From assembly GCA_000092065.1 (NCBI GenBank), contig CP000586.1: a stretch of 64,000 nucleotides of DNA. One strand, 5' to 3'. The notes under the pieces are model-generated. The model saw only the letters and a list, made by a program, of their open reading frames with translations. It did no database searches and was not told the origin of the DNA. The number at the start of each line of letters is the position of its first letter. Positions within the stretch are counted from its first letter, which is position 1. The position numbers and the translations under genes were made by a program. Below, piece by piece: positions 9,047 through 10,751 of this stretch. The stretch comes from Ostreococcus lucimarinus (taxonomy: Eukaryota).

Positions 9047-9234
9047 ATGACGGCGACGACGGCGCGCGGCGACGCGCTCCGCGTCGGCACCGCGACGCGG
9101 CGCGGGAGACGCGCGACGCGACGCGCGACGACGACGACGATTCGCGCGGCGGCGACGGCGCCGGCGCGCGCGGTCACGCGCGAGGAGTGCGTGGCGTTCG
9201 TCAGGCGGGGGTGTAAACCGAGAGAGGCGTTCAG
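9047..9234 (+). CDS. GSH1: glutamate-cysteine ligase, plant type (GSH1), exon 1 (transit peptide + start of conserved core)
   Basis: In frame 2 the peptide ...[20 protein letters not shown] aligns with plant GCL ...[20 protein letters not shown]. It stops at an AG|GTGCGG donor at 9234/9235. ATG 9047 begins an Arg/Ala/Thr-rich presequence. Confidence 0.6.
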
Positions 9235-9484
9235 GTGCGGCGAGGAAAACGACGCGACACCGGGAGGCGCGCAAAGCGCGGAGGCGGGCGCGCGCGCGAC
9301 GCGCGATGGGCGAACGGGGGATGACGCTTTATCCAGACGCGCGGGACGGCGCGGGACGGCGCGCGCGGATGGCGCCGAGGACGCGCGGGGGACGAGAAGG
9401 AGACGCGCGCGATGCGCGCGCGTTCGATATCGACGCGGGGGGGGGCGAGCGCGAGGACTGACGACGCGACGGACGACGACGCAG
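9235..9484 (+). other. spliceosomal intron of GSH1 (250 nt; GTGCGG...ACTGAC...CAG), contains a G9 homopolymer at 9437-9445
   Basis: A donor and acceptor bracket the only frame change needed to join two segments that are each conserved against plant GCL. Confidence 0.6.
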
Positions 9485-10751
9485 GATCGGGACGGAGCAC
9501 GAAAAGTTTGGGTACGACGAGGCGACCAAGCGAAGGATGGATTATCCAGTCGTGCGGCACGTCCTGAGCTCGCTCGTCGAGCGACACGGGTGGACGCCGA
9601 TAAACGAAGCGGATAACATCATCGGGTGCACGAAGGACAAGCAAAGCGTGACGCTCGAGCCGGGTGGACAGTTTGAACTCTCGGGCGCGCCGCTGGAGAA
9701 CCTGACGCAGACGGACGAGGAGGTGCGATGGCACATCGAGACCGTGAACGCGCTGGCGCGGGAAAAGGGGCACAGATTCTTGGGAATCGGGTTTGACCCG
9801 AAGTGGTCGGTGGCCGAGGTGCCGATGATGCCGAAAGGGAGGTATAAGATTATGCGCGCGTACATGCCGAAGAAGGGCACTCGCGGACACGACATGATGT
9901 TTCGCACGTGCACGATTCAAGTCAACTTGGATTTCGAGAGCGAGCAAGACATGGTGCGCAAGTTCAGGACGTCCCTCGCGCTGCAACCTCTCGCGACGGC
10001 GATGTTCGCCAACTCCGCGTTCGTGGACGGCGCGGACACCGGGTATCAATCCATGCGCTCCGACGTGTGGCGGGACACGGACGACGATCGCACGGGCACG
10101 CTCGCGTGGGTTTTCGACGACGATTTCGGGTTTGAAAAGTACTGCGACTACGTCATGAACGTACCGATGTACTTTGTGTACAGAAACGGCACGTACGTGG
10201 ACGTTTCGGGGGAATCCTGGCTCGATTTTATGGAGGGAAAGCTTCCTCAACTTCCGGGCGACAAGCCGACGATCGACGACTGGGAGCAACACCTCACGAC
10301 TGTGTTTCCGGAGGTTCGTCTCAAGAAGTACATGGAGATGCGAGGTGCCGACGGTGGCTCTTACGAAGCCATCATGGCCCTTCCCGCGCTTTGGGTTGGA
10401 TTGTTGTATTCCGACAAAGCCTTGGACGCGGCCGAGGCGATGGTGAGCGACTGGACGCAAGTCGAGCGCGACGCGCTTCGCGTCGACGTCACCAAGGATG
10501 GATTGTCGGCCAAGTTTAGAGGCGGCACGGCGAACGATATCGCCAAGAAAATGGTCGAACTTTCTGTACAGGGCCTGCAAGAGCGCGGTTTAGGCGAAGA
10601 AGTGTACTTGCGTTACTTGCAAGACATCGTCGACGACGGTAAGAGCGTCGCGGCGCGCATGTCCGAGATGAACGCGCGCGAGTGGAACGGTGATCTCGAA
10701 AAAGTTTACGAGTACGCCACCTTCCCAGACACGCTTCCGAAGATCGTTTGA
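9485..10751 (+). CDS. GSH1: glutamate-cysteine ligase, plant type (GSH1), exon 2
   Basis: Exon 2 begins after CAG| at 9484. Joining to exon 1 gives ...[13 protein letters not shown]..., matching the plant GCL core ([10 protein letters not shown]). From there the conserved protein continues (MPKGRYKIMRAYMPKKGTRGHDMMFRTCTIQVNLDF..., FPEVRLKKYMEMRGADGG) to the stop at 10751. The ORF-track start at 9537 is an internal Met. Confidence 0.85.

What the first reader, a model, noticed from the sequence alone, without database searches (positions are those of the whole stretch)
9047..10751. Plant-type glutamate-cysteine ligase is split by a 250-nt intron that the ORF track hides
The ORF-track model starting at 9537 lacks about 100 N-terminal residues of GCL. 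Reading frame 0 upstream to 9485 recovers [11 protein letters not shown], and frame 2 at 9182-9234 recovers [19 protein letters not shown]. Both are recognisable in plant GSH1 ([29 protein letters not shown]). They join exactly at AG|GTGCGG ... gacgacgCAG|G with the codon AG+G = Arg. The intron also carries a G9 homopolymer, which could otherwise be mistaken for a frameshift error. A GST gene lies 6 kb downstream at 16424-17134. The pairing may be coincidental, but both are glutathione-pathway genes.
Basis: partly seen in the sequence, partly recalled or inferred. Interest (0 to 1): 0.5.

Follow-up and report, generated by a model that had tools for sequence, protein, structure and literature searches.

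The report
Ordinary intron in algal GSH1 gene
The gene for the first enzyme of glutathione synthesis in this marine green picoalga is interrupted by one ordinary 250-base intron, which a public cDNA shows spliced out exactly as predicted, so the finding is correct but routine.

Summary
Joining 9047..9234 to 9485..10751 removes a 250-nt GT..AG intron (9235..9484) and gives a 484-aa plant-type glutamate-cysteine ligase. It scores 566.7 bits on TIGR01436 (cut-off 463) and aligns without a gap across the junction to solved plant GCL structures.

A cDNA contig from a public run (L020) begins with a template-switch oligo. It matches the window at 9024-9235 and 9482-10815, with the intron removed exactly at TTCAG|GATC, and encodes the same 484 aa apart from two transit-peptide substitutions.

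Across eight metagenome copies of this species the intron is 248-264 nt, covering all residues mod 3. In the short-read assemblies the exons carry no indels.

The intron has the splice signals published for Ostreococcus: 5' GTGCG and branch GACTGACG, 20 nt before CAG. It lies at the same codon and phase as intron 1 of GSH1 in Marchantia, Chlorella and Chlamydomonas. It is therefore the one ancestral intron kept out of 9-14. A low-GC relative has lost it.

It is not a frameshift at the G9 run and not an introner. The GST at 16424-17134 is real, but it is not near GCL in more distant relatives.

Small corrections: the ORF model lacks 80 residues, not about 100.

Verdict: a correct gene-model repair and an already known kind of feature. 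Interest is low.

The parts
9020..9046 (+). 5' UTR (approximate; transcription start about 9020-9024)
   Evidence: cDNA contig L020 begins with the template-switch oligo ATCAACGCAGAGTAC+GGGG. Its templated sequence then aligns from window 9024 onward. That the contig's 5' end equals the transcription start is inferred from the oligo. The upstream in-frame ATG at 8834 lies outside the transcript.
9047..9234 (+). Exon 1 coding part: start codon, about 40 residues of R/A/T-rich presumed chloroplast transit peptide, then the conserved block [19 protein letters not shown] plus the first two bases (AG) of Arg63
   Evidence: The ATG position is conserved in all population copies, and L005 and L006 have no upstream in-frame ATG. 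Short-read assemblies show no indels here. It is present in the cDNA. The transit-peptide role is inferred from composition and from the plastid location of plant GCL.
9235..9484 (+). Spliceosomal GT-AG intron, 250 nt, phase 2, sense strand G-rich and T-poor (119 G, 14 T)
   Evidence: It is absent from cDNA L020. Its length is 248-264 nt in 8 copies, covering all residues mod 3, and 4 copies have in-frame stops. Its interior is not conserved in sister lineages. It gives no Rfam match.
9235..9241 (+). 5' splice site GTGCGGC
   Evidence: It matches 5 of the 7 positions of GTGCGTG, the atypical consensus published for Ostreococcus lucimarinus introns outside chromosome 2 (PMC2483917). GTGCG is conserved in sister lineages L008, L012 and L022.
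9437..9445 (+). G9 homopolymer inside the intron
   Evidence: The longest G run is 7-12 in the population copies. It is not in the mRNA, so it has no effect on the reading frame.
9456..9463 (+). Branch-point motif GACTGACG, 20 nt before the 3' AG
   Evidence: This is an exact match to the extended Ostreococcus branch consensus (PMC2483917). It is invariant in the 8 population copies. ACTGAC is conserved in L008 and L012. The motif occurs 10 times in the window against 4.4 expected.
9482..9484 (+). 3' splice site CAG
9485..10751 (+). Exon 2: third base of Arg63, then [10 protein letters not shown]... to the stop codon (10749-10751). It holds the whole GCS2 catalytic domain and has no further intron
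   Evidence: The cDNA aligns to 9482-10815 at 100% identity without gaps. PF04107 covers residues 96-386. The exact 404-aa ORF is found in 954 blocks of the metagenome collection.
10752..10815 (+). 3' UTR (minimum extent)
   Evidence: The cDNA contig L020 runs to window 10815. This overlaps the end of the convergent isochorismatase-family ORF (10794..11552, minus strand; Pfam).

Best explanation
This is the nuclear GSH1 gene (plant-type glutamate-cysteine ligase) of a marine green picoalga of the Mamiellophyceae, most likely Ostreococcus-like.

The gene has two exons separated by one U2-type GT-AG intron (9235..9484). The pre-mRNA starts about 25 nt upstream of the ATG at 9047. The spliceosome recognises the 5' site AG|GTGCGG, the branch motif GACTGACG and the 3' site CAG|G. 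It removes 250 nt and joins the split Arg63 codon.

The mRNA encodes a 484-aa precursor. It has an N-terminal R/A/T-rich presequence followed by the complete enzyme, including the [10 protein letters not shown] block that the 404-aa ORF model lacks.

The intron is the ancestral first intron of green-lineage GSH1. It sits at the same codon and phase as in a liverwort and two chlorophytes. It is the only one of 9-14 introns retained in this intron-poor genome.

Shown here: the splice junction, the protein's family membership, the positional homology of the intron, and its non-coding mode of evolution.

Inferred: plastid targeting, the genus assignment, the 5'-biased loss of the other introns, and enzymatic activity.
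For: Family membership:
- TIGR01436 glu_cys_lig_pln scores 566.7 bits against a cut-off of 463.15, over residues 44-474.
- PF04107 matches at E = 8e-78.
- The protein aligns colinearly to PDB 9ufc, 2gwc and 6gmo, with ...[14 protein letters not shown] opposite ...[14 protein letters not shown].

Transcript evidence:
- Contig L020 (from protein P0130) starts with a template-switch oligo and lacks exactly 9235..9484.
- Its 484-aa ORF has only A3T and L11R relative to the spliced window model.

Population copies L001-L007:
- Intron lengths, window included, are 250, 256, 249, 253, 251, 264, 253 and 248 nt.
- Read-through meets a stop codon in 4 copies.
- In short-read assemblies there are 18 indel columns in the intron and 0 in the exons.

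Related lineages:
- L008-L015 (81-84% identical protein) have an intron of 197 or 222 nt at the same codon, with GTGCG and ACTGAC but an unrelated interior.
- High-GC relatives L016 and L022 carry it too.

Annotated GSH1 genes of Marchantia, Chlorella variabilis and Chlamydomonas schloesseri each have intron 1 at W|RIGTEHEK, phase 2.

The splice signals match the published Ostreococcus consensus GTGCGTG / GACTGACG (PMC2483917). The same signals recur at other probable introns in the window.
Against: - Nothing contradicts the intron.
- The cDNA comes from a slightly different allele: 97.2% identity over exon 1 and 100% over exon 2. It is a metagenome-style assembly from a run whose sample type I could not look up.
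- The +6 position of the 5' splice site is G rather than the consensus T.
- Two long-read-style contigs (L001, L003) have a 1-nt deletion in a G run of exon 1 that would break the frame. I read this as assembly error, but I have not proved it.
- The organism could not be named. No Mamiellophyceae protein carried a name in either protein search.
Confidence: 0.97

Rival explanations
1. There is no intron. The gene is one continuous ORF whose frame appears broken by a sequencing or assembly error in the G9 homopolymer (9437-9445).
For: Frame 2 stays open from 8834 to 9616, through the whole intron. A 1-nt error in the G run would restore frame 0. The G run does vary from 7 to 12 between assemblies.
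Against: - The cDNA lacks all 250 nt, not one base.
- Read-through would insert about 83 residues between two blocks that are adjacent in every transcript-derived or annotated homologue.
- In 4 of 8 population copies the read-through hits stop codons, and lengths differ by amounts that are not multiples of 3 well away from the G run.
Confidence: 0.01
2. The intron is a recently inserted repeat-family intron: an introner element of the Micromonas type, or a transposon-derived intron.
For: Mamiellophyceae are the group in which introner elements were described (PMC4540971). The intron's length of 250 nt is in their range.
Against: - There is no second copy in the 64-kb window, only short low-complexity CG-rich matches.
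- The insertion site is shared, at the same codon and phase, with Marchantia, Chlorella and Chlamydomonas and with all sister lineages, so it is ancient.
- The interior is not conserved between sister species.
Confidence: 0.01
3. The 404-aa ORF starting at Met 9537 is the real protein. The upstream similarity is a decayed remnant or a separate small upstream ORF.
For: Prokaryote-style gene callers report exactly this 404-aa product in hundreds of metagenome assemblies.
Against: - The ORF lacks the conserved [10 protein letters not shown] block and the preceding block, both of which are part of the crystallised mature plant enzyme. The alignment to 2gwc starts at query residue 38.
- The cDNA carries one 484-aa ORF from the upstream ATG.
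- Exon 1 evolves without indels and keeps its frame across the population and sister lineages.
Confidence: 0.01
4. The intron is real and is also kept for a function. Examples would be regulated intron retention that throttles glutathione synthesis, or intron-mediated enhancement of expression.
For: - It is the only one of 9-14 ancestral introns kept.
- It persists in at least five related lineages.
- Highly expressed Ostreococcus genes are reported to be enriched in introns (PMC2367439 abstract).
Against: - The interior is unconserved between sister species.
- A low-GC relative with the same synteny has lost it and keeps an intact gene.
- Retention of the 5'-most intron is the expected by-product of 3'-biased intron loss in intron-poor genomes. 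This is established general knowledge and was not tested here.
Confidence: 0.1

Closest known systems
Plant GSH1 / chloroplastic glutamate-cysteine ligase (Brassica juncea GCL, PDB 2gwc/2gwd; also 9ufc and 6gmo; TIGR01436)
   Same: - Full-length colinear similarity at E about 1e-160.
- It scores above the equivalog cut-off.
- It has the same N-terminal block ...[19 protein letters not shown].
- It has an N-terminal presequence.
- Intron 1 lies at the same codon and phase as in Marchantia, Chlorella and Chlamydomonas GSH1.
   Different: - There is only one intron instead of 9-14.
- Both cysteines of the regulatory disulfide (Arabidopsis Cys186/Cys406) are replaced, by Asp140 and Met360.
- The thiol switch described for plant GCL therefore cannot operate. 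A review notes that this absence is already known for some green algae (PMC9426629).
Ostreococcus lucimarinus 'normal' (non-chromosome-2) introns as described by Irimia and Roy 2008 (PMC2483917)
   Same: - The atypical strong 5' site GTGCG.
- The extended branch motif GACTGACG a short, fixed distance (20 nt) before the AG.
- No polypyrimidine tract.
- A length in the 100-400 nt range.
- An intron-poor, very compact gene context.
   Different: Position +6 is G, not T. The species itself could not be named with the tools available, so membership of that genus is inferred.
Introner elements of Micromonas (PMC4540971)
   Same: Both are spliceosomal introns of similar length in a mamiellophycean alga.
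   Different: This one is single-copy in the window, lies at an ancient position and has no conserved interior, so it is not a member.

Membership tests
Plant-type glutamate-cysteine ligase (TIGR01436 equivalog; Pfam GCS2 PF04107) | Whole-protein score above the curated equivalog cut-off | tested here: met
   566.7 bits against a cut-off of 463.15, residues 44-474 on profile positions 3-444 of 446. PF04107 gives 262 bits against a cut-off of 21.
Plant-type glutamate-cysteine ligase (TIGR01436 equivalog; Pfam GCS2 PF04107) | Colinear full-length similarity to experimentally solved plant GCLs, including the N-terminal [10 protein letters not shown] block | tested here: met
   9ufc_A E = 2.9e-162 (query 12-473). 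2gwc_A E = 6.8e-159 (query 38-472). There is no gap at the exon junction.
Plant-type glutamate-cysteine ligase (TIGR01436 equivalog; Pfam GCS2 PF04107) | Regulatory disulfide Cys186-Cys406 (Arabidopsis numbering). This is a feature of the redox-switched land-plant enzymes, not of the family as a whole | tested here: not met
   In alignment A1 the two columns hold Asp140 and Met360 in the window protein and in all 80-84% identical relatives. Marchantia, Chlorella and the 53-60% relatives have Cys. The absence in some green algae is already reported (PMC9426629).
Plant-type glutamate-cysteine ligase (TIGR01436 equivalog; Pfam GCS2 PF04107) | Plastid targeting presequence | not testable with these tools
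   The first 43 or so residues are R/A/T-rich with one acidic residue, and they vary within the species. No targeting predictor was available.
Plant-type glutamate-cysteine ligase (TIGR01436 equivalog; Pfam GCS2 PF04107) | ATP-dependent ligation of Glu and Cys | not testable with these tools
   This needs an enzyme assay.
U2-type GT-AG spliceosomal intron | Absent from the mature mRNA, with the exons joined at GT/AG boundaries | tested here: met
   cDNA contig L020: window 9024-9235 and 9482-10815 are contiguous, with junction TTCAG|GATCGGG.
U2-type GT-AG spliceosomal intron | 5' splice site, branch point and 3' splice site matching the lineage consensus | tested here: met
   GTGCGGC, then GACTGACG, then 20 nt, then CAG. 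The published Ostreococcus consensus is GTGCGTG / GACTGACG.
U2-type GT-AG spliceosomal intron | Evolves as non-coding sequence while the flanking exons stay in frame | tested here: met
   Lengths of 248-264 nt cover all residues mod 3, and there are in-frame stops. There are 18 indel columns in the intron against 0 in the exons. The interior is unalignable between sister species.
U2-type GT-AG spliceosomal intron | Positional homology with annotated introns of orthologues | tested here: met
   Intron 1 of Marchantia, Chlorella variabilis and Chlamydomonas schloesseri GSH1 lies at the same codon in phase 2.
Introner element (repeat-family intron) | Many near-identical copies in introns of unrelated genes of the same genome | tested here: not met
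   blastn of the intron against the 64-kb window found only short CG-rich low-complexity matches. The rest of the genome was not available.

The most novel reading that the evidence does not exclude
The single surviving GSH1 intron is kept by selection in these extremely intron-poor picoalgae. It could serve as an expression enhancer, or as a stress-responsive intron-retention switch. Such a switch might stand in for the thiol switch that this enzyme has lost (Cys186/Cys406 replaced by Asp/Met).
Probability: 0.07. Interest if true: 0.4.

Novelty: already known. Interest (0 to 1): 0.1.

Why it matters
The main value is practical.

ORF-based or prokaryote-style gene calling truncates this enzyme to 404 aa in hundreds of marine metagenome assemblies. 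The exact truncated ORF is listed in 954 blocks of the collection. That truncation removes a conserved N-terminal block that is part of the mature crystallised enzyme. The corrected 484-aa model is the one to use for annotation, phylogeny or expression work.

There is also a clean small example of intron evolution. One ancestral green-lineage intron, the 5'-most, survives in an intron-poor genome, with the strong atypical splice signals typical of Ostreococcus. A related low-GC lineage has lost it. None of this changes current understanding.

Tried and rejected
- **Repeat search.** blastn of the intron against the window found no second copy, only CG-rich low-complexity matches. The introner idea was dropped.
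- **Rfam.** The whole window gave no match at gathering thresholds. Region 8900-9600 at E <= 1 gave only three chance-level hits. The best in the intron was ceN40 at 15 bits against 35 needed. There is no sign of an intron-hosted snoRNA or other known RNA.
- **Conserved interior element.** Aligning the introns of sister lineages showed that only the splice signals align.
- **Naming the organism.** Two protein searches and the cluster and contig look-ups returned only unnamed metagenome sequences. The closest named proteins are Chlorella, Pyramimonas and Pedinophyceae at 42-56%. The genus is therefore inferred from splice signals, GC content, gene density and synteny.
- **AGGTGCGT search.** The full-consensus donor pattern has no match in the window. 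The donors here read GTGCGG or GTGCGC, so position +6 is not fixed.
- **GCL-GST linkage.** It is not conserved in more distant relatives, so I treat it as coincidence. I did not test whether it holds within the genus.
- **Frameshift at G9.** Rejected; see the rival explanations.

Full report
**1. What is in the sequence**

- An ATG at 9047 opens a frame that runs to ...GCG TTC AG at 9234.
- The next bases are GTGCGG.
- At 9482-9484 there is CAG, followed by G ATC GGG ACG GAG CAC GAA AAG.
- Joining 9047..9234 (188 nt) to 9485..10751 (1267 nt) gives 1455 nt, which is 484 codons plus a stop. The split codon AG|G is Arg63 (phase 2).
- The removed piece is 250 nt and 75.6% GC. It contains a G9 run at 9437-9445.

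The mechanical ORF list shows only a 404-aa ORF from Met 9537. The ORF model is therefore 80 residues short, not about 100. Of these, 62 come from exon 1 and 18 from exon 2.

**2. What the product is**

The spliced protein is a plant-type glutamate-cysteine ligase.
- It scores 566.7 bits on the NCBIfam equivalog TIGR01436 (cut-off 463.15), over residues 44-474.
- It scores 262 bits on Pfam GCS2.
- It aligns to solved plant GCLs 9ufc, 2gwc and 6gmo at E about 1e-159 to 1e-162.
- In the printed alignment...[31 protein letters not shown] lies opposite ...[31 protein letters not shown] with no gap at the junction.
- Residues 38-62, encoded by exon 1, align to the crystallised mature enzyme. Exon 1 is therefore not only presequence.

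**3. Direct transcript evidence**

One member of the 90% cluster of the 404-aa ORF is a 436-aa product, P0130. It reads (M)[24 protein letters not shown]..., which means exon 1 and exon 2 are already joined. Its contig L020 is 1562 nt and comes from public run SRR28369238.

The contig begins ATCAACGCAGAGTACGGGG. From my own knowledge this is the 3' part of the SMART template-switch oligo plus the added Gs, which marks a cDNA 5' end.

blastn to the window gives two blocks:
- L020 21-232 matches 9024-9235 at 97.2% identity.
- L020 229-1562 matches 9482-10815 at 100% identity with no gaps.

The 4-base overlap is the CAGG shared by both boundaries. The only GT-AG solution is 9234|9485.

The ORF from the ATG equivalent to 9047 is 484 aa. 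It differs from the spliced window model only by A3T and L11R.

This result:
- shows there is no second intron;
- places the transcript start near 9020-9024, so the upstream in-frame ATG at 8834 is not used;
- shows a 3' UTR of at least 64 nt.

**4. Population evidence**

The exact 404-aa ORF is listed in 954 blocks of the assembly collection. Seven long contigs, L001-L007, were fetched.

In the alignment exon 2 is invariant and the ATG is conserved. With the window included, intron lengths are 250, 256, 249, 253, 251, 264, 253 and 248 nt, covering all three residues mod 3. Read-through from exon 1 meets a stop codon in four copies.

Restricting to the short-read assemblies gives 18 indel columns in the intron and none in exon 1 or exon 2.

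The longest G run varies from 7 to 12.

L001 and L003 have contig names in the style of a long-read assembler. Both carry a 1-nt deletion in a G run of exon 1. I read this as assembly error.

**5. Comparative evidence**

All relatives at 80-84% identity are ORF calls that begin with unrelated residues and then RIGTEHEK. Their DNA shows why.
- In L008-L011, exon 1 ends ...SGCKTRDRF + AG|GTGCGT.
- In L012-L015, exon 1 ends ...SGCKPKSAF + AG|GTGCGC.
- Their introns are 197 and 222 nt and end ...ACTGAC...YAG|G at the same codon.
- The interiors do not align with each other or with the window.

Two higher-GC relatives also have an intron at this site. These are L016 (68% GC) and L022 (65% GC), whose proteins are 53-61% identical to the window's. 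Their introns are 138 and 161 nt. Both are multiples of 3 plus the shared phase, so ORF callers read straight through them as 46- to 54-residue insertions.

A low-GC relative, L024 (44% GC), has the same neighbourhood: eIF3g, GCL, isochorismatase, L7Ae, TrmE. It has an uninterrupted 546-aa ORF, so the intron has been lost there.

**6. Age of the intron**

I mapped the annotated proteins of three species onto their own genomic loci with an exact spliced mapper.
- Marchantia polymorpha has 14 introns.
- Chlorella variabilis has 9 introns.
- Chlamydomonas schloesseri has 11 introns.

In all three, intron 1 falls at ...W|RIGTEHEK in phase 2, exactly as in the window. The window's intron is therefore the ancestral first intron of green-lineage GSH1 and the only one retained here.

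Retention of the 5'-most intron is what 3'-biased intron loss in intron-poor genomes is expected to leave. That is general knowledge and was not tested here.

**7. How it is recognised**

Irimia and Roy 2008 (PMC2483917) report that EST-confirmed O. lucimarinus introns outside chromosome 2 have the atypical 5' consensus GTGCGTG. They also report that 87% of these introns contain ACTGAC and 66.5% contain GACTGACG.

The window intron starts GTGCGGC and has GACTGACG at 9456-9463, 20 nt before the AG. Its sense strand has 119 G and only 14 T, so there is no polypyrimidine tract.

GACTGACG occurs 10 times in the window against 4.4 expected. Several occurrences sit in the same GTGCG...GACTGACG...YAG arrangement and join open frames. 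One example is minus-strand 20884..20460, directly after the ATG of a ribosomal protein L7a-like gene (Pfam).

Four things point to an Ostreococcus-like mamiellophyte:
- these splice signals;
- 62% GC;
- spacers of 30-45 nt between convergent genes;
- synteny with the low-GC contig.

This is an inference. No named Mamiellophyceae protein appeared in either protein search.

**8. Rivals**

- **Frameshift at the G9 run.** It is excluded by the cDNA, by the stop codons, and by indels that are not multiples of 3 lying elsewhere in the intron.
- **Introner element.** It is excluded by single-copy status in the window and by the ancient position.
- **Initiation at 9537.** It is excluded by the cDNA ORF and by the conserved N-terminal block.
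- **Hosted known RNA.** None is detectable.
- **Functional reason for retention.** It cannot be excluded. The unconserved interior and the loss in L024 argue against it.

**9. The GST remark**

ORF 16424-17134 is a real GST. It has GST_N_2/GST_N_3 and GST_C_2 domains and a CPYA motif near its N-terminus.

In L021 and in L022/L023, which keep the eIF3g-GCL-isochorismatase arrangement, no GST lies within 10 kb. The proximity in the window is best treated as coincidence.

**10. Side observation**

The two cysteines of the plant regulatory disulfide (Arabidopsis Cys186 and Cys406) are Asp140 and Met360 here. The same holds in all 80-84% identical relatives. Marchantia, Chlorella and the 53-60% relatives keep Cys. 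A review states that some green algae are already known to lack them (PMC9426629).

**11. Verdict**

Both the observation and the interpretation are correct. The feature is an ordinary, ancestral spliceosomal intron in a housekeeping gene. The value of the finding is a corrected gene model (484 aa rather than 404 aa). Novelty: already known. Interest: low.

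Noticed in passing
window 20460-20887 (minus strand): This is a probable 425-nt intron directly after the start codon of a ribosomal protein L7a (eL8)-like gene. The sequence is GACATG|GTGCGCGCGA ... GGACTGACG ... TTTTCGCAG|GCT. Exon 2 then reads APSKKPAP... to a stop near 19659. The joined 267-aa product hits Pfam Ribosomal_L7Ae.
   Followed up: partly
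window 18989-19138 (minus), 44741-44900 (plus), 39296-39481 (plus), 12192-12403 (minus): These are four further candidate introns with the same GTGCG ... GACTGACG ... YAG layout. The first two join open frames in phase 0. The last lies just upstream of the ATG (12170) of the Snu13/L7Ae-like ORF and would be a 5'-UTR intron. None was checked against homologues or transcripts.
   Followed up: partly
window residues Asp140 (about 9714-9716) and Met360 (about 10374-10376) of the spliced GCL: Both cysteines of the plant GCL regulatory disulfide (Arabidopsis Cys186/Cys406) are replaced here and in all 80-84% identical relatives. More distant relatives keep them. A review says the absence in some green algae is already known (PMC9426629).
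   Followed up: partly
window 10752-10815 versus ORF 10794-11552 (minus strand): The GCL cDNA's 3' UTR extends at least 22 nt into the end of the convergent isochorismatase-family coding region. The two transcripts therefore overlap tail to tail.
   Followed up: no
L001:2640-2660 and L003:2640-2660 (equivalent to window about 9200-9212): Two contigs, with names in the style of a long-read assembler, have a 1-nt deletion in a short G run of exon 1 (GGGAGCGGG to GGAGCGGG) that would break the frame. The other six copies are intact. It is probably homopolymer error in the assemblies.
   Followed up: partly
window 14219-16525 (minus strand) and 16424-17134 (plus strand): A PIF1-like helicase ORF (Pfam PF05970) lies head to head with the GST. 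The longest mechanical ORF of the helicase overlaps the GST start, so the true helicase start must lie further in. The divergent promoter region is very short.
   Followed up: no
protein searches: No protein from any named Mamiellophyceae genome (Ostreococcus, Micromonas, Bathycoccus) appeared among the hits for either GCL or the GST. Dozens of unnamed marine metagenome clusters at 50-86% identity did appear. The window's organism therefore could not be named.
   Followed up: partly
L024:3001-4641: A low-GC (44%) relative with the same gene order (eIF3g, GCL, isochorismatase, L7Ae, TrmE) has an intronless GCL with a long N/Q/K-rich N-terminal extension. This is a lineage-specific loss of the ancestral intron.
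   Followed up: partly
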